Shown one piece after another: positions 26,627 to 35,747 of a DNA stretch of 64,000 bases. The notes under the pieces were generated by a model, which did not search any database, was not told where the DNA came from, and was given only the letters and a program-made list of their open reading frames with translations. The DNA is from Escherichia coli (lineage in GTDB: Bacteria; Pseudomonadota; Gammaproteobacteria; Enterobacterales; Enterobacteriaceae). The stretch lies in assembly GCF_024298765.1 (NCBI RefSeq), contig NZ_CP101210.1. One strand, written 5' to 3'. Made by a program: the position numbers and the translations under genes. Numbering within the stretch: the stretch's first letter is position 1; each line of letters opens with the position of its first letter.

Positions 26627-28384
26627 ATGAAAATGACTTTGCCGTTTAAACCCCATGTGCTGGCGCTAATTTGCAGTGCCGGGCTTTGTGCCGCCTCTAC
26701 CGGGCTATATATAAAAAGCCGCACAGTGGAAGCGCCTGTGGAACCGCAATCGACACAACTGGCTGCGCCTGACATCTCCGCAGTTACGCTTCCTGCAACG
26801 GTTTCCGTGCCTCCTGTAACACCTGCCGTCGTCAAATCCGCATTCAGCACTGCGCAAATAGATCAATGGGTTGCACCTGTCGCGCTATACCCCGACTCTC
26901 TGCTTTCACAAGTGTTAATGGCATCAACCTATCCGGCAAACGTTGCTCAAGCAGTGCAATGGTCGCACGATAATCCACTTAAACAAGGCGATGCTGCTAT
27001 TCAGGCGGTATCTGACCAGCCCTGGGACGCCAGCGTCAAATCACTGGTGGCCTTTCCACAGTTGATGGCATTGATGGGCGAAAACCCGCAATGGGTGCAA
27101 AACCTGGGCGATGCTTTTCTGGCGCAGCCGCAGGAGGTGATGGACTCGGTACAGCGATTGCGGCAACTGGCGCAACAAACCGGCTCGCTGAAGTCATCAA
27201 CTGAACAGAAAGTTATTACCACAACGAAGAAAGCTGTACCGGTAAAACAGACAGTCACGGCTCCCGTCATACCATCCAATACCGTTTCAACTGCCAACCC
27301 TGTCATTACAGAGCCTGCAACAACCGTCATTTCCATTGAACCCACCAATCCTGATGTGGTCTATATTCCCAACTACAAGCCAACCGTGGTTTACGGGAAC
27401 TGGGCCAATACTGCGTATCCGCCGGTTTATCTGCCGCCGCCAGCCGGAGAACCGTTTGTTGACAGCTTTGTGCGCGGATTCGGCTATAGCATGGGCGTTG
27501 CTACCACGTACGCGCTATTCAGCAGCATCGACTGGGATGACGACGATCATGACCATCATCATCATGACGATGATGATTATCACCATCACGATGGCGGTCA
27601 TCGTGATGGTAATGGCTGGCAACACAATGGCGACAACATCAATATCGACGTCAACAATTTCAACCGTATCACCGGTGAGCATCTTACTGATAAGAATATG
27701 GCATGGCGGCACAATCCAAACTACCGTAATGGTGTGCCCTATCATGATCAGGATATGGCAAAGCGGTTTCATCAAACCGATGTCAACGGCGGAATGAGCG
27801 CCACGCAGCTACCTGCTCCAACACGCGACAGCCAGCGTCAGGCGGCAGCAAGTCAGTTTCAGCAACGAACACACGCCACACCCGTCATTACGCGAGATAC
27901 CCAACGTCAGGCAGCGGCACAGCGGTTTAATGAAGCTGAAAACTATGGGAGCTATGACGACTTCCGCGACTTCAGCCGTCGCCAACCACTGACCCAGCAA
28001 CAAAAGGACGCCGCTCGTCAGCGTTATCAGTCGGCCTCTCCTGAGCAGCGCCAGGCAGTCCGCGAGAAAATGCAGACTAACCCGCAGATCCAGCAGCGAA
28101 GAGAGGCAGCGCGTGAGCGCATTCAGTCTGCAACTCCCGAACAGCGCCAGGTGTTTAAGGAAAAAGTACAGCAGCGCCCACTGAATCAACAGCAACGTGA
28201 TAACGCCCGCCAGCGTGTTCAATCAGCATCACCTGAGCAACGTCAGGTTTTTCGGGAGAAAGTTCAGGAGAGCCGCCCGCAACGTCTAAACGACAGTAAC
28301 CGTACTGCCAGGCTGAATAACGAGCAACGGTCAGCAGTACGCGAACGGCTGTCTGAACGTGGAGCAAGACGGCTGGAAAGGTAA
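26627..28384 (+). CDS. yacH: DUF3300-family secreted protein of unknown function, with low-complexity His/Asp tract and Q/R-rich repeats
   Basis: 585-aa ORF with signal peptide; start uncertain. Confidence 0.8.
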   Translation: MKMTLPFKPHVLALICSAGLCAASTGLYIKSRTVEAPVEPQSTQLAAPDISAVTLPATVSVPPVTPAVVKSAFSTAQIDQWVAPVALYPDSLLSQVLMASTYPANVAQAVQWSHDNPLKQGDAAIQAVSDQPWDASVKSLVAFPQLMALMGENPQWVQNLGDAFLAQPQEVMDSVQRLRQLAQQTGSLKSSTEQKVITTTKKAVPVKQTVTAPVIPSNTVSTANPVITEPATTVISIEPTNPDVVYIPNYKPTVVYGNWANTAYPPVYLPPPAGEPFVDSFVRGFGYSMGVATTYALFSSIDWDDDDHDHHHHDDDDYHHHDGGHRDGNGWQHNGDNINIDVNNFNRITGEHLTDKNMAWRHNPNYRNGVPYHDQDMAKRFHQTDVNGGMSATQLPAPTRDSQRQAAASQFQQRTHATPVITRDTQRQAAAQRFNEAENYGSYDDFRDFSRRQPLTQQQKDAARQRYQSASPEQRQAVREKMQTNPQIQQRREAARERIQSATPEQRQVFKEKVQQRPLNQQQRDNARQRVQSASPEQRQVFREKVQESRPQRLNDSNRTARLNNEQRSAVRERLSERGARRLER

Positions 28385-28454: not shown

Positions 28455-29879
28455 TTACTTCTTCTTCGCTTTCGGGTTCGGCAGGTCGGTAATGCTACCT
28501 TCGAACACTTCTGCCGCCAGGCCCACAGACTCGTGCAGCGTCGGGTGCGCATGGATGGTCAGTGCGATGTCTTCAGCGTCACAACCCATTTCGATTGCCA
28601 GGCCGATTTCACCCAGCAGCTCGCCGCCGTTAGTACCGACAATCGCACCACCGATCACACGGTGAGATTCTTTGTCGAAAATCAGCTTGGTCATACCGTC
28701 TGCGCAGTCGGAAGCGATAGCACGACCAGAAGCAGCCCACGGGAAGGTGGCGGTTTCATAGCTGATGCCTTTCTCTTTCGCTTCTTTCTCGGTCAGACCA
28801 ACCCATGCAACTTCTGGTTCGGTATAGGCGATGGACGGGATAACTTTCGGATCGAAGTAATGTTTTTTACCGGCGATAACTTCAGCGGCAACGTGACCTT
28901 CGTGAACACCTTTGTGTGCCAGCATCGGCTGACCGACGATATCGCCGATAGCAAAGATGTGCGGTACGTTGGTACGCAGCTGTTTGTCAACGCGGATGAA
29001 ACCACGGTCGTCAACTTCCACGCCAGCTTTGCCTGCGTCGAGGTTTTTACCGTTCGGCACACGACCAATCGCTACCAGCACGGCGTCGTAACGCTGCGGT
29101 TCAGCGGGTGCTTTTTTGCCTTCCATCGTCACATAAATGCCGTCTTCTTTCGCTTCAACGGCGGTAACTTTGGTTTCCAGCATCAGGTTGAATTTCTTGC
29201 TGATACGCTTGGTGAAGACTTTAACGATGTCTTTGTCAGCTGCCGGGATAACCTGGTCGAACATTTCAACCACATCAATCTGTGAACCCAGCGCGTGGTA
29301 TACGGTCCCCATTTCCAGACCGATGATACCGCCACCCATTACCAGCAGGCGTTCTGGTACTTCTTTCAGTTCCAGCGCGTCAGTGGAGTCCCAGATACGC
29401 GGATCTTCATGCGGAATAAACGGCAGTTGGATCGGGCGAGAACCCGCTGCAATGATCGCGTTGTCGAAGTTGATCACGGTTTTGCCGTTCTCACCTTCAA
29501 CTTCCAGGGTGTTAGCCCCGGTGAATTTACCCAGACCGTTGACCACTTTGACTTTGCGGCCTTTTGCCATACCAGCCAGACCACCGGTCAGCTGATTGAT
29601 CACTTTCTCTTTCCAGGTACGAATCTTGTCGATATCGGTTTTCGGTTCGCCGAAGACGATACCGTGTTCAGCCAGCGCTTTGGCTTCTTCGATAACTTTT
29701 GCTACGTGCAGCAGTGCTTTAGAAGGGATACAGCCGACGTTCAGGCAAACACCGCCAAGGGTGGCGTAACGTTCTACGATTACGGTTTCCAGACCTAAAT
29801 CAGCGCAACGGAAGGCAGCGGAGTAACCTGCGGGGCCTGCCCCAAGTACCACGACCTGAGTTTTGATTTCAGTACTCAT
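28455..29879 (-). CDS. lpdA: dihydrolipoyl dehydrogenase (E3)
   Basis: ORF 28455..29912 trimmed to MSTEIKTQVVVLGAGPAGY (474 aa); FAD/NAD Rossmann motifs; redox-active CLNVGCIPSK. Confidence 0.95.
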   Translation of the reverse strand: MSTEIKTQVVVLGAGPAGYSAAFRCADLGLETVIVERYATLGGVCLNVGCIPSKALLHVAKVIEEAKALAEHGIVFGEPKTDIDKIRTWKEKVINQLTGGLAGMAKGRKVKVVNGLGKFTGANTLEVEGENGKTVINFDNAIIAAGSRPIQLPFIPHEDPRIWDSTDALELKEVPERLLVMGGGIIGLEMGTVYHALGSQIDVVEMFDQVIPAADKDIVKVFTKRISKKFNLMLETKVTAVEAKEDGIYVTMEGKKAPAEPQRYDAVLVAIGRVPNGKNLDAGKAGVEVDDRGFIRVDKQLRTNVPHIFAIGDIVGQPMLAHKGVHEGHVAAEVIAGKKHYFDPKVIPSIAYTEPEVAWVGLTEKEAKEKGISYETATFPWAASGRAIASDCADGMTKLIFDKESHRVIGGAIVGTNGGELLGEIGLAIEMGCDAEDIALTIHAHPTLHESVGLAAEVFEGSITDLPNPKAKKK

Positions 29880-30171
29880 CATGACCTCTATATATTTATC
29901 TCCGGCGGTCATACCCGTCGTCTTTCAGGCCGCAGCGGCGTTAGCTTCACGCCCTCACCCCAGTCACTTACTTATGTAAGCTCCTGGGGATTCCGGCGCT
30001 TGCTACCTTGCTGCACCCAGAAATCCATAGGGTATGTGAAGTAATACCCTAACCACCACCGGGTCGTTCTATCCGTCGGTATTTTACAAAATTGTTAACA
30101 ATTTTTAAACAACAAACGGCAACCGATTTGTCTATTCGCTAATAACCTCAATACATTCATGAGATTACCAG

Positions 30172-30201
30172 AAAAAAGCCGGCCGTTGGGCCGGCTCTTT
30201 T
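30172..30201 (-). terminator. stem-loop with U-tract immediately downstream of aceF (gccggcccaacggccggc + TTTTTT on the - strand)
   Basis: read directly from the sequence. Confidence 0.6.
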
Positions 30202-30203
30202 AC

Positions 30204-32096
30204 TTACATCACCAGACGGCGAATGTCAGACAGCGTGTTGTTAATGATGGTAATGAAACGGGCACCATCAGCACCGTCGATCACGCGGTGGTCGAAGGAG
30301 AGAGAAATCGGCAGCATCAGACGCGGCACGAACTCTTTACCATTCCACACCGGCTCCATCGCGGACTTGGAAACGCCGAGGATAGCCACTTCCGGCGCGT
30401 TCACAATCGGCGCGAAGTGGGTAGTCCCCAGGCCGCCGATGCTGGAGATGGTGAAGCAACCGCCCTGCATTTCGCCCGCAGTCAGCTTACCGTCACGCGC
30501 TTTCTTAGAAATAGTCATCAGCTCGCGAGACAGCTCGATGATGCCTTTCTTGTTGACGTCTTTGAATACCGGAACAACCAGACCGTTCGGGGTATCCACC
30601 GCCACACCGATGTTGATGTATTTCTTCAGGGTCAGACGCTGACCGTCTTCCGACAACGAACTGTTGAAGCGAGGCATCTGCTCAAGAGCTGCAGCAACGG
30701 CTTTCATGATGAAGACAACTGGGGTTATCTTCACATCCAGCTTACGTTTCGCCGCTTCTTCGTTCTGCTGTTTACGGAACGCTTCCAGCTCGGTGATATC
30801 GGTTTTGTCGAAGTGGGTAACATGCGGGATCATCACCCAGTTACGGCTCAGGTTCGCACCAGAGATTTTCTGGATGCGGCCCAGTTCCACTTCTTCGATT
30901 TCACCAAACTTGCTGAAGTCTACCTTCGGCCACGGCAACATGCCCGGGATACCGCCGCCAGTCGCCGCCGGAGCCGCTTCTGCACGTTTGATAGCTTCTT
31001 TCACGTAAGCCTGAACGTCTTCGCGCAGGATACGACCTTTACGGCCAGTGCCCTTCACTTTCGCCAGGTTAACGCCAAATTCGCGTGCCAGACGGCGGAT
31101 CAGCGGAGTCGCGTGAACGTAAGCGTCGTTTTCAGCAAATTCAGATTTGCCTTCGGCTTTCGCAGCCGGAGCTGCTGCTGGAGCTTCAGCTTTTGCTGCC
31201 GGAGCCGGCGCTGCCGCTTCCTGTTTCACAGGAGCTGCCGCAGGCGCTGCGCCTTCAACTTCGAAGATCATAATCAGCGAGCCAGTTTTCACTTTATCGC
31301 CAACGTTGACTTTCAGTTCCTTCACGACGCCTGCAAACGGAGCCGGAACTTCCATAGACGCTTTATCGCCTTCTACGGTGATCAGTGACTGTTCAGCGGC
31401 AACTTTGTCGCCCACTTTCACCATCACTTCGGTCACTTCAACTTCGTCACCGCCGATATCCGGAACGTTAACTTCTTTCACGCCAGCCGCTGGTGCAGGG
31501 GCCGCTGCCGGAGCCGCTTCCTGTTTAGCCGCCGGAGCTGCCGCGCCTGCTTCACCCGCGACTTCGAAGACCATAATCAGCGAGCCGGTAGACACTTTGT
31601 CACCCACGTTCACTTTGATCTCTTTCACGGTGCCAGCAAACGGAGCCGGAACTTCCATAGAAGCCTTGTCGCCTTCTACGGTGATCAGCGACTGTTCAGC
31701 TTCAACTTTATCGCCAACTTTCACCAGGATTTCGGTCACTTCAACTTCGTCGCTGCCGATATCCGGAACATTAACGTCTTTTGCCGCGGCAGCCGCTGGT
31801 GCTGCTGCCGGAGCGGCTTCTTTCTTCTCTTCTGCCTGAGCAGGTGCAGCGTCTGCTGCACCGTCGGCGGAATCGAAAATCATAATCAGTGCGCCGGTCT
31901 GGGTTTTATCGCCAACAGAGACTTTGATCTCTTTAACGATACCCGCCTGCGGAGACGGAACTTCCATAGAGGCTTTGTCGCCTTCTACGGTGATCAGCGA
32001 CTGTTCGGCTTCAACTTTGTCGCCCACTTTGACCAGGATCTCGGTGATTTCAACTTCATCAGCCCCGATGTCCGGTACTTTGATTTCGATAGCCAT
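30204..32096 (-). CDS. aceF: pyruvate dehydrogenase E2, dihydrolipoamide acetyltransferase (three lipoyl domains)
   Basis: 630-aa ORF; three repeated lipoyl domains with Ala/Pro linkers; catalytic DHRVIDG. Confidence 0.95.
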
Positions 32097-32110
32097 TATT
32101 CTTTTACCTC

Positions 32111-34774
32111 TTACGCCAGACGCGGGTTAACTTTATCTGCATCGATGTTGAATTTGGCGATTGCGTCAGCAACCACTTTCTTATCGATTTCGCCACGTTT
32201 AGCCAGTTCGCCCAGCGCCGCAACCACGACATAAGAAGCATCAACTTCAAAGTGGTGACGCAGGTTCTCACGGCTGTCGGAACGACCGAAGCCATCAGTA
32301 CCCAGTACGCGGTAGTCGTCAGCCGGTACGTAAGTACGGACCTGCTCAGCGAACAGTTTCATATAGTCGGTAGATGCCACTGCCGGAGCGTCGTTCATCA
32401 CCTGAGCGATATACGGAACGCGCGGAGTTTCCAGCGGGTGCAGCATGTTCCAGCGTTCACAATCCTGACCATCACGCGCCAGTTCGGTGAAGGAAGTCAC
32501 GCTATAAACGTCAGAACCTACGCCGTAATCTTTCGCCAGGATCTCTGCTGCTTCACGGACGTGACGCAGGATAGAACCGGAGCCCAGCAGCTGAACTTTA
32601 CCTTTGCTACCTTCAATGGTTTCGAGTTTGTAGATACCTTTACGGATACCTTCCTCAGCACCTTCCGGCATTGCTGGCATGTGGTAGTTTTCGTTCAGCG
32701 TAGTGATGTAGTAGTAAACGTTCTCTTGTTTCTCACCGTACATACGCTCCAGACCGTCATGCATAATGACAGCAACTTCGTAAGCGTAAGCCGGGTCGTA
32801 AGAGATACAGTTCGGGATAGTCAGCGACTGAATGTGGCTGTGACCATCTTCGTGCTGCAGACCTTCGCCGTTCAGGGTGGTACGACCGGAAGTACCGCCG
32901 ATCAGGAAGCCACGCGCTTGCTGGTCACCAGCCGCCCAGCACAGATCGCCGATACGCTGGAAGCCGAACATCGAGTAATAGATGTAGAACGGAATCATCG
33001 GCAGATTGTTGGTGCTGTAAGAGGTCGCCGCTGCCAGCCAGGAACACCCAGCGCCCAGCTCGTTGATCCCTTCCTGCAGAATCTGACCTTTCTCGTCTTC
33101 TTTATAGTAAGCAACCTGCTCGCGGTCCTGCGGGGTGTACTGCTGACCGTTCGGGCTGTAAATACCAATCTGACGGAACAGACCTTCCATACCGAAAGTA
33201 CGCGCTTCGTCGGCGATGATCGGTACCAGACGATCTTTGATCGACTTGTTCTTCAGCATTACGTTCAGGGCACGAACGAAAGCGATAGTGGTAGAGATCT
33301 CTTTGCTCTGCTCTTCCAGCAGCGCGCCGAAGTCTTGCAGGCTCGGCAGCTCAAGCTTCTCGGTGAAGTTCGGCTGACGGCTTGGCAGATAACCGTGCAG
33401 TTTCTGACGCTGAGCGTGCAGATAGGTATGCTCTTCAGAACCTTCCGGGAAGGTGATGTACGGCAATTTTTCGATATCGGCATCAGACACCGGCACATTG
33501 AAACGGTCGCGGATGTGACGCACGCCGTCCATGTTCATTTTCTTAACCTGGTGCGCGATGTTTTTACCTTCAGCCGCGTCGCCCATGCCGTAACCTTTAA
33601 TGGTATGAGCAAGGATTACCGTCGCTTTGCCTTTGGTTTCCTGCGCTTTCTTAAATGCAGCGTAGATTTTCTTCGGATCGTGACCACCACGGTTCAGTGC
33701 CCAGATCTGTTCGTCAGTCCAGTCTGCAACCAGTGCTGCGGTTTCAGGATATTTACCGAAGAAGTGTTCACGAACGTACGCACCATCTTTCGATTTGAAG
33801 GTCTGGTAGTCGCCGTCAACGGTTTCGTTCATCAGCTGGATCAGTTTACCGCTGGTATCTTTACGCAGCAGTTCATCCCAACGGCTACCCCACATCACTT
33901 TGATCACGTTCCAGCCAGCACCTTCGAAGATGCCTTCCAGTTCGTTGATGATCTTGCCGTTACCGGTGACCGGGCCGTCAAGACGCTGCAGGTTACAGTT
34001 GATAACGAAAACCAGGTTATCCAGTTTTTCACGGGTAGCGATGGTGATCGCACCTTTGGATTCCGGTTCGTCCATTTCACCGTCGCCGAGGAACGCGTAA
34101 ACGGTTTGTTTAGAGGTATCTTTCAGGCCACGGTGTTCCAGATATTTCAGGAATTTAGCCTGGTAAATAGCACCAATCGGCCCCAGACCCATAGATACGG
34201 TCGGGAACTGCCAGAATTCCGGCATCAGTTTCGGGTGCGGATAGGAAGAGAGGCCATTGCCGTGAACTTCCTGACGGAAGTTATCCAGCTGCTCCTGAGT
34301 CAGACGACCTTCCAGGAAAGCACGAGCGTAAACACCCGGGGAGATGTGGCCCTGGAAGTAAACCAGGTCGCCGCCATCCTGCTCGTTGCGTGCACGGAAG
34401 AAGTGGTTAAAGCACACATCATAAATGGTTGCGGAAGACTGGAAGGACGCCATGTGGCCGCCCAGTTCGAGGTCTTTTTTCGACGCACGCAGCACCGTCA
34501 TGATGGCGTTCCAGCGGATAGCTGAACGAATACGGCGTTCCAGTTCCAGATTACCCGGATACTCCGGTTGTTCTTCAACGGGGATGGTGTTGATGTAGTT
34601 GCTGATACCGGTGCCTGCGGCTACGTTGACACCGCCTTTGCGGGCTTCAGCAAGCAGTTGGTCGATCAGATACTGAGCACGCTCAACACCTTCTTCACGG
34701 ATGACCGATTCGATCGCCTGGAGCCAGTCGCGAGTTTCGATCGGATCCACGTCATTTGGGAAACGTTCTGACAT
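32111..34774 (-). CDS. aceE: pyruvate dehydrogenase E1 component
   Basis: 887-aa ORF recognised as AceE; 14-bp gap before aceF. Confidence 0.95.
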
Positions 34775-34934
34775 GGGTTATTCCTTATCTATCTAATAAC
34801 GTTGAGTTTTCTGGAACCTGTCCCATTGAACTCTCGCCGGAAAGCTCAATAAGACAGGTTCTACGTTTAGTTGCCGCGCTTTTATATGCGCTTGATTTAC
34901 AACATCTTCTGGATAATTTTTACCAGAAAAATCA

Positions 34935-35699
34935 CTAATTCTTTCGTTGCTCCAGACGACGTAGAGAACGCTCACGGCGGCTCTCTTCACGGCTTCTGTC
35001 GAGCAAAATTTCTTCGATAAAGGCCAGATGGCGATGCGATGCTTCGCGCGCTTCTTCCGGCTTACCGGCCATAATCGCTTCAAATATGCGGGTGCGGTGA
35101 CTACTCACCAGCGGCAGCATCTCGCGACGCGAATAGAGCAATTCGAAGTTCTGGCGGACATTCTGGGCCAACATCGGCTCCATACACCTTAGCAGATGAA
35201 GCAGAACCACATTGTGGGCCGCTTCGGTGACGGCAATCTGATACTGGAGTACGGCATTTGATTCCGCGTCCAGATCGCCAGACTGCTGCGCCAGCTCTAT
35301 GGCGTGGTGGAGTTCACGGATGCGTTCCTTGTCTTCATCGGTACTACGCAGCGCGGCGTAATAAGCGGCGATACCTTCCAGGGCGTGTCGTGTTTCGAGC
35401 AAGTCATACTGTGATTCAGGATGGTCGGAGAGCAGCTCCACCAGCGGATCGCTGAAGCTTTGCCATAGGCTGCTCTGGACAAAAGTGCCGCCACCCTGGC
35501 GACGAAGCAACAAGCCCTTCGCTTCGAGACGTTGAATCGCCTCACGCAATGAGGGACGGGAGACGTCAAACTGTTTTGCCAGTTCGCGTTCCGGTGGGAG
35601 TTTTTCGCCCGGGCGGAGAGTGCCTTCGAGGATCAAAAACTCCAGTTGCTGCTCAATCACATCGGAGAGTTTTGGTTGGCGGATTTTGCTGTAGGCCAT
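34935..35699 (-). CDS. pdhR: GntR-family pyruvate-responsive transcriptional repressor
   Basis: ORF 34935..35732 trimmed to [17 protein letters not shown] (254 aa). Confidence 0.9.
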
Positions 35700-35730
35700 G
35701 AGTTCCTGTCTTAAGCCACTTGCCGAAGTC

Positions 35731-35747
35731 AATTGGTCTTACCAATT
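35731..35747. promoter_or_regulatory. PdhR operator palindrome AATTGGTcttACCAATT in the pdhR promoter/leader
   Basis: perfect palindrome read from the sequence, about 32 bp upstream of the pdhR start; matches the known PdhR box. Confidence 0.75.

What the first reader, a model, noticed from the sequence alone, without database searches (positions are those of the whole stretch)
30204..32096. Three tandem lipoyl-domain repeats in aceF create about 300-bp direct repeats and a spurious antisense ORF
The protein contains three near-identical lipoyl domains ([42 protein letters not shown]) separated by Ala/Pro linkers, so the DNA at about 31150..32090 is a triple direct repeat. The opposite strand reads as a long Ala/Gly/Ser-rich ORF (31147..31839 +) that is an artefact. 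Repeats of this size can recombine to change lipoyl-domain number.
Basis: partly seen in the sequence, partly recalled or inferred. Interest (0 to 1): 0.15.

Follow-up and report, generated by a model that had tools for sequence, protein, structure and literature searches.

The report
Three lipoyl-domain repeats in E. coli aceF
This is the ordinary, textbook aceF gene of E. coli, whose three repeated lipoyl domains make a ~300-bp triple DNA repeat and a meaningless open frame on the opposite strand; database comparison shows these repeats do occasionally recombine in nature to give two- or four-domain versions.

Summary
Window 30204..32096 (-) is E. coli aceF (630 aa), the E2 core of pyruvate dehydrogenase, in the pdhR-aceE-aceF-lpd operon.

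**Repeat.** Three lipoyl domains plus Ala/Pro linkers form a triple direct repeat (31185..32096; periods 303/309 nt; 11-14 SD above all other self-diagonals). "Near-identical" is too strong: cores are 74-86% identical in protein and 76-84% in DNA, and the longest exact shared runs are 20-32 nt.

**Antisense ORF.** The 230-codon ORF (31147..31839 +) exists and is best read as a by-product:
- every synonymous reshuffle of aceF leaves an equal or longer open run;
- no Pfam hit, promoter or Shine-Dalgarno, and RefSeq does not annotate it;
- the translation is absent from 15 billion proteins;
- 35 of 77 related species carry stops inside it.

**Recombination.** About 99.8% of 5,423 complete E. coli genomes keep three domains. 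Six carry clean one-unit deletions whose crossovers map to the 26- and 32-nt identical runs. One of them is identical to this window (0 SNPs in ~3.8 kb) apart from the missing 303 bp. Four-domain tandem duplications occur in draft assemblies. Lip2 and lip3 show gene conversion in other Enterobacterales.

Already known biology; low interest.

The parts
30204..32096 (-). aceF CDS (630 aa plus stop at 30204-30206): dihydrolipoyllysine-residue acetyltransferase, the E2p core of the pyruvate dehydrogenase complex
   Evidence: ORF; NCBIfam PRK11854 equivalog 1100.6 bits against cut-off 722; Pfam domains; 100% identical to annotated aceF of E. coli strain 104; PDB 7b9k full-length match at 1321.6 bits
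31866..32093 (-). Lipoyl domain 1 core (aa 2-77); lipoyl-lysine K41 codon at 31974-31976 in the motif EGDKASM
   Evidence: Pfam PF00364, 3 stretches; motif positions; orthologous to lip1 in 75 of 75 other Enterobacterales
31785..31865 (-). Ala/Pro/charged linker 1 (aa 78-104)
   Evidence: Translation; length-polymorphic among strains, +3 Ala in strain 2017.11.01CC
31557..31784 (-). Lipoyl domain 2 core (aa 105-180); lipoyl-lysine K144 codon at 31665-31667
   Evidence: Pfam PF00364 best stretch 107-176
31482..31556 (-). Ala/Pro linker 2 (aa 181-205)
   Evidence: Translation
31254..31481 (-). Lipoyl domain 3 core (aa 206-281); lipoyl-lysine K245 codon at 31362-31364
   Evidence: Pfam; PDB 1qjo and 2k7v match aa 206-284/293
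31119..31253 (-). Ala/Pro/Lys linker 3 (aa 282-326), containing a 33-nt internal tandem repeat
   Evidence: TRF period 33 at 31151-31220; strain indels of -4 aa and +2 aa here
31011..31118 (-). Peripheral-subunit (E1/E3) binding domain, aa 327-362
   Evidence: Pfam PF02817, 60.4 bits; PDB 8oqj and 4qoy
30207..30902 (-). Catalytic acetyltransferase core domain (aa 399-630), with DHRVIDG at aa 602-608 (His603 codon 30288-30290)
   Evidence: Pfam PF00198, 269.7 bits; PDB 4n72; motif position
31975..32006 (-). 32-nt run exactly shared by lip1 and lip2 (the partner copy is 31666-31697). The 309-bp deletion and duplication alleles cross over here.
   Evidence: (gene nt 91-122 / 400-431); crossover maps
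31636..31661 (-). 26-nt run exactly shared by lip2 and lip3 (the partner copy is 31333-31358). The 303-bp deletion and duplication alleles cross over in or next to this run.
   Evidence: gene nt 436-461 / 739-764; crossover map; duplications start at gene nt 409
31147..31839 (+). 230-codon antisense ORF (TTG start), judged spurious. Its third codon positions face aceF third positions, and it carries the lipoyl repeat in mirror form.

Best explanation
The region is the E. coli aceF gene. Its product is the E2 core of the pyruvate dehydrogenase complex.

How it works. Three N-terminal lipoyl domains of about 76 aa each carry a lipoyl-lysine (K41, K144, K245). They are tethered by flexible Ala/Pro linkers to an E1/E3-binding domain and a C-terminal catalytic domain that assembles into the core. 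The lipoyl domains act as swinging arms that carry acetyl groups between the E1, E2 and E3 active sites (established knowledge; the domain architecture is shown here).

The repeat. The ~300-bp triple direct repeat is simply the DNA image of that triplicated domain-plus-linker unit. The triplication is old. Lip1 is a separate orthologous lineage across Enterobacterales. Lip2 and lip3 are more alike and have been homogenised by gene conversion in some lineages. In E. coli the copies have diverged to 76-84% DNA identity, leaving only 20-32-nt perfectly shared runs.

Recombination. Those runs are just long enough for rare homologous unequal exchange (inferred mechanism). This gives in-register loss or gain of one unit.

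The antisense ORF. It is a passive by-product. This stretch of AceF has no Tyr or His and few Gln codons preceded by NNT. Those are the only sense contexts that create a stop in that antisense frame.
For: Identity and architecture. The operon neighbours are aceE (TIGR00759, 1645.8 bits), lpd (TIGR01350) and pdhR (PRK09464).

Repeat.

Age and evolution. All 77 full-length Enterobacterales aceF genes analysed have three DKA lysine motifs. Lip1 of the 75 non-E. coli species is closest to E. coli lip1 in 75 of 75. Within-species lip2-lip3 third-codon-position identity averages 0.66 and reaches 0.88, against a between-species baseline of 0.56 +/- 0.07, with perfect tracts over 100 nt in some species. 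E. coli stands at 0.68 (z = 1.8).

Recombination products. A calibrated hybrid-junction search found 6 of 5,426 complete genomes. VTB97379v, C2 and Rb-50 were fetched and have a 1590-bp aceF (529 aa). Strain 01_3327 was fetched and has an intact 1584-bp ORF (527 aa). C4 and 03_3013 are inferred from identical match geometry. Crossovers map to the 26-nt and 32-nt identical runs. VTB97379v has 0 SNPs against this window over about 3.8 kb apart from the 303-bp gap, while C2 and Rb-50 differ by 54 SNPs, so the events are independent. The exact 527-aa sequence is on 454 contigs and the 529-aa sequences on 182 and 17 contigs. Four-domain proteins of 723-738 aa occur in E. coli and Salmonella, and the E. 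coli contigs fetched show perfect 303/309-nt tandem duplications.

Antisense ORF. It has no Pfam hit. 500 of 500 synonymous shuffles of aceF keep an equal or longer open run in that frame. RefSeq annotates nothing opposite aceF in the identical genome. There is no promoter-like site on the + strand and no Shine-Dalgarno before the TTG. The translation is absent from a 15-billion-protein collection. 35 of 77 species have at least one stop inside the homologous span, and the ORF boundaries are not conserved.

Literature: E. coli E2p has three lipoyl domains that are 73% identical and act redundantly (PMC8421416). One domain suffices in vitro (Guest et al. 1985, cited in PMC5013485). Lowering domain content reduces growth rate and yield (Dave et al. 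1995, cited in PMC10579247).
Against: Nothing contradicts the gene identity.

Limits:
- Lipoylation and catalysis are inferred from homology, not measured.
- The recombination mechanism (RecA-dependent exchange as opposed to replication slippage) is inferred only from where the junctions lie.
- In-register deletion and duplication products are also exactly what mis-traversal of a de Bruijn-graph loop would produce if k is at most 26-32. Counts from short-read and Logan-type assemblies (454 and 182 contigs; all four-domain cases) may therefore be inflated.
- No four-domain allele was found in complete genomes.
- The antisense frame has its third positions opposite aceF third positions, so substitution patterns cannot discriminate, and low-level antisense transcription cannot be excluded from sequence alone.
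- The 80 cross-species loci were the best-scoring hits, which biases them towards three-domain genes.
Confidence: 0.96

Rival explanations
1. The 230-codon ORF at 31147..31839 (+) is a real gene overlapping aceF on the opposite strand and encoding a repetitive Ala/Ser/Thr-rich protein.
For: It is long (230 codons) and open. The same antisense frame is largely open across Enterobacterales, with 0-3 stops in the lipoyl region in 76 of 77 species.
Against: The openness is fully predicted by the AceF sequence and codon usage: 500 of 500 synonymous shuffles give an equal or longer open run. There is no Pfam hit, no promoter-like site and no Shine-Dalgarno. It is not annotated in RefSeq and is absent from 15 billion predicted proteins. 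Stops interrupt the homologous span in 35 of 77 species, and the start and stop positions are not conserved. Longer antisense ORFs (409 aa across aceF, 757 aa across aceE) arise the same way in this operon.
Confidence: 0.02
2. The repeat is a fast-changing copy-number ('contingency-like') locus in which lipoyl-domain number switches frequently within E. coli populations.
For: Two-domain and four-domain alleles exist and arose several times independently. Small linker indels of -4, +2 and +3 aa are also seen.
Against: About 5,413 of 5,423 complete genomes (99.8%) keep the canonical arrangement. The repeats are only 76-84% identical, with exact runs of at most 32 nt. Lip1 has stayed orthologous across an order of bacteria. 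All 77 full-length species genes have three domains.
Confidence: 0.04
3. The two- and four-domain aceF variants in databases are assembly artefacts (collapse or double traversal of the repeat), so the repeats do not really recombine in nature.
For: In-register products are exactly what de Bruijn-graph loop errors give when k is no longer than the shared run. Several ENA four-domain proteins are clearly inter-species chimeras (P0018, P0026, P0031, P0043). One metagenomic 'duplication' has non-identical copies (L093). No four-domain allele occurs in complete genomes.
Against: Two-domain alleles occur in six complete genomes from four independent sources, four of them fetched and checked. The same 529-aa protein sits in backgrounds that differ by 54 SNPs over 3.8 kb. 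The 26-nt lip2/lip3 run is shorter than the k values normally used in final assembly graphs (own knowledge). The out-of-register 192-bp deletion is shared by four separately assembled isolates. Isolate drafts carry perfect 309-nt duplications in two backgrounds that differ by 27 SNPs.
Confidence: 0.1

Closest known systems
E. coli K-12 AceF (E2p of the pyruvate dehydrogenase complex; PDB 7b9k, 4n72, 1qjo; NCBIfam PRK11854 / TIGR01348 'PDHac_trf_long')
   Same: Same length (630 aa) and same architecture: three lipoyl domains, a PSBD and a catalytic domain. The lipoyl-lysines sit at K41, K144 and K245, the DHRVIDG motif is present, and the pdhR-aceE-aceF-lpd operon is the same. DNA identity to K-12 is 98.2%, and 100% to strain 104.
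   Different: Only allelic differences, for example V290 where most strains have A. Nothing structural.
E2 chains with other lipoyl-domain numbers (1-3 depending on species; engineered E. coli E2p with 1-9 domains; Serratia symbiotica AceF reduced to 1-2 domains)
   Same: Same modular design, in which domain number can change without destroying function (PMC6270654; PMC5013485 citing Guest et al. 1985).
   Different: Those are between-species differences or laboratory constructs. The variants found here (527/529-aa and 723-738-aa AceF) are within-species alleles made by crossovers at the 26-32-nt identical runs of this very repeat.
Long spurious antisense ORFs opposite highly expressed, codon-biased bacterial genes
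   Same: The open frame is produced by the sense strand avoiding the codon contexts whose complement is a stop. aceF has 0 TTA, 0 CTA and 1 TCA codon among 630.
   Different: The 230-aa ORF lies in the frame whose third positions face aceF third positions. Its openness comes from the amino-acid make-up of the lipoyl and linker region (no Tyr or His, few Gln), not from rare-codon avoidance. The 409-aa and 757-aa ORFs lie in the codon-on-codon frame.

Membership tests
PDH-complex E2 acetyltransferase, long Gram-negative type (AceF; NCBIfam PRK11854 / TIGR01348) | Whole-protein score above the curated equivalog cut-off | tested here: met
   PRK11854 scores 1100.6 bits against 722, and TIGR01348 scores 1039.8 against 552.1. 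The SucB models fall below their cut-offs (349 against 449; 323 against 379).
PDH-complex E2 acetyltransferase, long Gram-negative type (AceF; NCBIfam PRK11854 / TIGR01348) | One or more N-terminal lipoyl domains with the lipoylatable Lys in a D-K-A hairpin motif | tested here: met
   Pfam PF00364 finds 3 stretches at 223.7 bits. EGDKASM occurs three times, placing the lysines at K41, K144 and K245.
PDH-complex E2 acetyltransferase, long Gram-negative type (AceF; NCBIfam PRK11854 / TIGR01348) | Peripheral-subunit-binding domain between the lipoyl domains and the core | tested here: met
   PF02817 at aa 327-362, 60.4 bits; PDB 8oqj and 4qoy match.
PDH-complex E2 acetyltransferase, long Gram-negative type (AceF; NCBIfam PRK11854 / TIGR01348) | C-terminal 2-oxoacid dehydrogenase acyltransferase domain with the catalytic His in DHRxxDG | tested here: met
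   PF00198 at aa 399-629, 269.7 bits; DHRVIDG at aa 602-608; PDB 4n72 matches at 544.5 bits.
PDH-complex E2 acetyltransferase, long Gram-negative type (AceF; NCBIfam PRK11854 / TIGR01348) | Operon context with the E1p (aceE) and E3 (lpd) genes | tested here: met
   aceE lies at 32111-34774 (-), lpd within 28455-29912 (-) and pdhR within 34935-35732 (-). The same layout is annotated in strain 104.
PDH-complex E2 acetyltransferase, long Gram-negative type (AceF; NCBIfam PRK11854 / TIGR01348) | Actual lipoylation and acetyl-transfer activity | not testable with these tools
   Inferred from near-identity to the experimentally studied K-12 protein (PDB 7b9k; PMC8421416).
Protein-coding gene (claim considered for the antisense ORF 31147..31839 +) | Homologues, expression signals, conservation of ORF boundaries, or an ORF longer than the sense gene's composition alone would produce | tested here: not met
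   No Pfam hit; no promoter or Shine-Dalgarno; not annotated; not in the protein collection; interrupted in 35 of 77 species; not longer than synonymous shuffles give.

The most novel reading that the evidence does not exclude
The aceF lipoyl-domain array is a naturally copy-number-polymorphic locus within E. coli. Two-domain alleles, made by in-register crossovers at the 26- and 32-nt identical runs, have arisen several times independently. They persist in lineages: six complete genomes, and exact sequences on 17-454 public contigs. Four-domain alleles also occur. This would mean that three domains are favoured but not required in the wild, even though laboratory work shows a growth cost for fewer domains. 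I found no description of this within-species polymorphism in the searchable literature.
Probability: 0.55. Interest if true: 0.3.

Novelty: already known. Interest (0 to 1): 0.15.

Why it matters
For the window itself it matters little. This is a textbook gene whose repeat structure has been known since the gene was first sequenced in the 1980s (own knowledge), and the antisense ORF should simply be ignored by annotators.

Two practical points follow:
- Repeat-containing essential genes like aceF generate long spurious antisense ORFs. They can also trip homology-based annotation: PGAP labels an intact 527-aa two-domain allele a pseudogene.
- The rare natural two- and four-domain alleles are ready-made material for testing why E. 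coli keeps three apparently redundant lipoyl domains. That question has so far been addressed only with engineered constructs.

Tried and rejected
- **Listing deviant genomes from ordinary searches.** The 'spread' row option of search_dna_similar could not enumerate the few low-identity or low-coverage genomes. It gave counts plus only the weakest record. I replaced it with junction-specific queries.
- **Concatenating six hybrid-junction queries head to tail.** The concatenate behaves like a tandem array, and normal genes scored up to 791-981 bits. An exhaustive permutation test timed out. Alternating the strand of successive hybrids solved it: normal alleles scored at most 460 bits and true hybrids 480-569. 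This design misses crossovers near the domain ends.
- **Short matches L009 (E. albertii) and L085 (Dickeya).** They looked like two-domain genes but are loci cut mid-gene. Rejected.
- **Strain AB_24_S34.** Its two-piece, 87%-identity match suggested an insertion or intragenic gene conversion. The gene has normal length, and the variant bases mostly do not match the paralogous repeat. It is an imported patch closest to Citrobacter/Kluyvera-like sequence.
- **dN/dS-type discrimination of the antisense ORF.** Considered and dropped, because its third positions face aceF third positions.
- **Literature searches for natural lipoyl-domain-number polymorphism or repeat-mediated aceF deletions.** Nothing relevant was returned.
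- **Protein search for two-domain variants.** The search ranks by summed score, so it surfaces four-domain variants but cannot surface two-domain ones.
- **File-path error.** One script failed for this reason.
- **Structure prediction of the 566-aa chimeric variant.** Considered but not run, as it lies outside the window's own sequence.
Full report
**What is there.** The window is Escherichia coli. The 1,893-bp stretch is 100% identical to aceF of strain 104 and 97.6-99.2% identical to the other full-length matches sampled among 5,424 complete genomes. RefSeq annotates it as aceF between aceE and lpdA, with pdhR upstream and yacH and acnB downstream. The ORF at 30204..32096 (-) encodes 630 aa. 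It scores 1100.6 bits against the NCBIfam equivalog PRK11854 (cut-off 722) and stays below the cut-offs of the succinyltransferase models. Pfam finds three Biotin_lipoyl stretches, one E3_binding domain (aa 327-362) and one 2-oxoacid_dh catalytic domain (aa 399-629). The protein matches PDB 7b9k over its full length, 4n72 over the catalytic domain, 1qjo and 2k7v over the third lipoyl domain, and 8oqj and 4qoy over the binding domain. The lipoyl-lysines sit in three EGDKASM motifs at K41, K144 and K245. The catalytic DHRVIDG motif is at aa 602-608.

**Checking the observation.** The repeat finder returns a three-copy, 300-nt family at 31198-31497, 31501-31800 and 31810-32109. Tandem Repeats Finder gives period 303, 2.7 copies, 79% matches and score 896. 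In a self dot-plot the offsets 303, 309 and 612 reach 0.78, 0.70 and 0.69 identity over the best 300-nt window. All other offsets average 0.295 +/- 0.036, so z = 11-14, and codon-shuffled genes never exceed 0.42. The repeat is real and far beyond chance. In-register units (domain plus linker) are 31791-32096, 31488-31790 and 31185-31487.

'Near-identical' is an overstatement. The 76-aa cores are 79% (lip1-lip2), 74% (lip1-lip3) and 86% (lip2-lip3) identical in protein and 77%, 76% and 84% in DNA. The longest perfectly shared DNA runs are 32 nt (lip1/lip2), 26 nt (lip2/lip3) and 20 nt (lip1/lip3). This agrees with the published figure of 73% identity among the three domains (PMC8421416).

**The antisense ORF.** The 230-codon TTG-start ORF at 31147..31839 (+) exists. 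It is Ala/Ser/Thr-rich (23.5%, 18.7% and 14.3%), not Ala/Gly/Ser-rich. Its third codon positions face aceF third positions. In that frame a stop arises only where a sense codon ending in T (or C) is followed by a Tyr, His or Gln codon. The lipoyl and linker region has no Tyr or His and few Gln, so the frame is open by necessity. All 500 synonymous reshufflings of aceF leave an equal or longer open run.

The ORF has no Pfam hit, no promoter-like site on the + strand and no Shine-Dalgarno sequence before the TTG. It has no RefSeq annotation in the identical genome, and its translation is absent from a collection of about 15 billion predicted proteins. Across 77 Enterobacterales the same frame carries 0-3 stops in 76 species (7 in the remaining one). 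The stop positions vary, and 35 species have at least one stop inside the span homologous to the E. coli ORF.

The operon contains even longer antisense ORFs: 409 aa at 30159..31388 and 757 aa across aceE. These lie in the codon-on-codon frame and are explained by aceF using 0 TTA, 0 CTA and 1 TCA codon. All of this supports 'artefact'. Sequence alone cannot exclude weak antisense transcription.

**Evolution of the repeat.** One scan of species-representative genomes returned 80 Enterobacterales loci. Two are cut mid-gene and one more yielded no full-length gene with my extraction. Together with the window, that left 77 full-length genes, and all 77 have three lysine motifs. Keeping the best-scoring 80 biases the sample towards full-length genes. 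In the 75 non-E. coli species, lip1 is closest to E. coli lip1 in 75 of 75, so the triplication predates the order's radiation.

Lip2 and lip3 are less distinct. Lip3 is closest to E. coli lip2 in 26 of 75 species at DNA level, and 22 of 231 domains have their nearest neighbour in the same genome. At third codon positions, within-species lip2-lip3 identity averages 0.66 and reaches 0.88, against a between-species lip2-versus-lip3 baseline of 0.56 +/- 0.07. Perfect tracts over 100 nt occur in some species. That is a gene-conversion signature which protein-level selection cannot explain. In E. coli the value is 0.68 (z = 1.8), so recent conversion there is at most marginal.

**Does domain number change? 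Deletions.** In complete E. coli genomes the canonical arrangement dominates. All 5,423 genomes that match the lipoyl region cover at least 80% of it, and only a handful deviate in sub-segment searches. I built six hybrid-junction probes (lipXN + lipYC) and calibrated them locally: normal alleles score at most 460 bits, and recombinants with central crossovers score 480-569 bits. Searching with E <= 1e-129 matched six genomes.

- Strains VTB97379v, C2 and Rb-50 were fetched and have a 1,590-bp aceF of 529 aa with a lip2N/lip3C hybrid. C4 is inferred from identical match geometry.
- Strain 01_3327 was fetched and has an intact 1,584-bp ORF of 527 aa with a lip1N/lip2C hybrid. PGAP flags it as a pseudogene 'missing N-terminus'. 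Strain 03_3013 is inferred from identical match geometry.

The crossover intervals fall in or next to the 26-nt and 32-nt identical runs. That is where homologous exchange would be expected, given a minimal processing segment of roughly 20-30 bp in E. coli (own knowledge).

VTB97379v is identical to this window over about 3.8 kb (0 SNPs) apart from the 303-bp gap. C2 and Rb-50 differ from each other by 54 SNPs, of which 15 lie inside aceF, so several independent events are likely. The exact 527-aa sequence is recorded on 454 contigs, the two 529-aa sequences on 182 and 17 contigs, and the 529-aa cluster holds 305 distinct sequences.

**Does domain number change? Duplications.** A protein search ranks AceF proteins of 723-738 aa from E. 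coli, Salmonella and Citrobacter above the normal protein. Their sequences are lip1-[lip2N/lip1C]-lip2-lip3 or lip1-lip2-[lip3N/lip2C]-lip3, with strain-specific substitutions present in both copies. At DNA level four of the five E. coli contigs examined show perfect tandem duplications of 303 or 309 nt. These start at gene nt 409, 91 or 67 and sit in backgrounds that differ by 20-30 SNPs.

**Caveats on the variant alleles.**
- Several ENA entries are inter-species assembly chimeras, and one metagenomic contig has non-identical copies.
- No four-domain allele is present in complete genomes at this probe's sensitivity.
- In-register products are also what de Bruijn-graph loop errors would generate when k does not exceed the shared run. 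The short-read counts are therefore upper bounds.
- The two-domain alleles in complete genomes are the firm evidence.

**Other length variants.** Four isolates from Taiwan (strains 439, 446, 447 and 463) share a 192-bp in-frame deletion (window 31416..31607) that is out of register with the 303-bp repeat. It joins the two copies of the intradomain V-x-V-G-D-K-V motif (GTGAAnGTGGGnGACAAAGT) in the C-half of lip2 and the N-half of lip3. The result is a 566-aa protein with a 1.5-domain chimera. Linkers vary by +3, -4 and +2 aa among strains. In total about 10 of 5,423 complete genomes (0.18%) lack the canonical three intact domains.

**Comparison with what is known, and verdict.** Everything about the window's own sequence is textbook: the three lipoyl domains, the Ala/Pro linkers and the ~300-bp DNA repeats. 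The literature held here treats lipoyl-domain number as a species property of 1-3 (PMC6270654). It reports domain loss in the reduced genomes of Serratia symbiotica (PMC5013485). It cites engineered E. coli constructs showing that one domain suffices in vitro (Guest et al. 1985) but that fewer domains lower growth rate and yield (Dave et al. 1995).

I found no description of within-species copy-number alleles in E. coli. That by-product of this check is mildly new, but it is not a property of this window. Novelty: already known. Interest: low.

Noticed in passing
window 31416..31607 (aceF aa 164-227); L002 and L007: Four separately assembled clinical genomes from Taiwan (strains 439, 446, 447, 463) share a 192-bp in-frame deletion that is out of register with the 303-bp repeat. 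It joins the two V-x-V-G-D-K-V motifs, one in the C-half of lip2 and one in the N-half of lip3. The result is a 566-aa AceF with a 1.5-domain chimera carrying two lipoyl-lysine hairpins (WP_418509931.1, seen on 6 contigs).
   Followed up: partly
L006 (strain AB_24_S34), aceF gene nt ~138-410, equivalent to window ~31687-31959: A ~270-bp mosaic patch is ~15% divergent from E. coli, against ~1.5% elsewhere in the gene, and gives 9 aa changes. 31 complete genomes show 80-90% identity in this segment. The patch is closest (88-90%) to Citrobacter, Kluyvera and Trabulsiella sequences, so it looks like an inter-species import rather than intragenic conversion.
   Followed up: partly
window 30159..31388 (+) and 32252..34525 (+): Even longer antisense ORFs (409 aa across the aceF 3' half, 757 aa across aceE) lie in the codon-on-codon frame. 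aceF contains 0 TTA, 0 CTA and 1 TCA codon, which explains the near-absence of stops. The aceE ORF shares that frame but its codon usage was not counted.
   Followed up: partly
window 34777..34890 (+): An Rfam hit to the sRNA family tp2 (RF02030, 103.4 bits against a gathering score of 50) lies in the pdhR-aceE intergenic region, on the strand opposite to the operon.
   Followed up: no
L091 520-2103 (strain 01_3327): PGAP labels the intact 527-aa two-domain aceF a pseudogene ('incomplete; missing N-terminus'). This is an annotation artefact of homology-based length checks on a repeat-deleted allele.
   Followed up: yes
aceF linkers: window ~31785-31865 and ~31119-31253; L003, L004, L005: Small in-frame linker-length polymorphisms occur among strains: +3 Ala in linker 1, and -4 aa (AAPA; ETEC H10407) and +2 aa (AP) in linker 3. 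Linker 3 also contains a 33-nt tandem repeat (31151-31220).
   Followed up: partly
proteins P0053 and P0050: Two other E. coli AceF length variants: 668 aa, with a 38-aa tandem duplication inside lip2, and 680 aa, with a 50-aa tandem duplication of the peripheral-subunit-binding domain. Whether they are real was not checked.
   Followed up: no
protein collection, cluster 1: The 90%-identity cluster that holds the 630-aa and 527-aa AceF sequences has an 887-aa representative and is mostly AceE proteins (16,813 members). This looks like a clustering artefact, probably bridged by a fused or partial aceE-aceF call.
   Followed up: no
window 26627..28384 (+), yacH (DUF3300): The C-terminal third of YacH contains three copies of a ~35-aa repeat (…ARQRYQSASPEQRQAVREKMQ…, …ARERIQSATPEQRQVFKEKVQ…, …ARQRVQSASPEQRQVFREKVQ…). 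A His/Asp-rich tract (DDDDHDHHHHDDDDYHHHD) precedes them.
   Followed up: no
window 30081..30196: The aceF-lpd intergenic region holds a G+C-rich palindromic hairpin (30177-30196, just after the aceF stop) and a promoter-like site on the - strand (30109-30081) upstream of lpd. This fits lpd having its own promoter.
   Followed up: no
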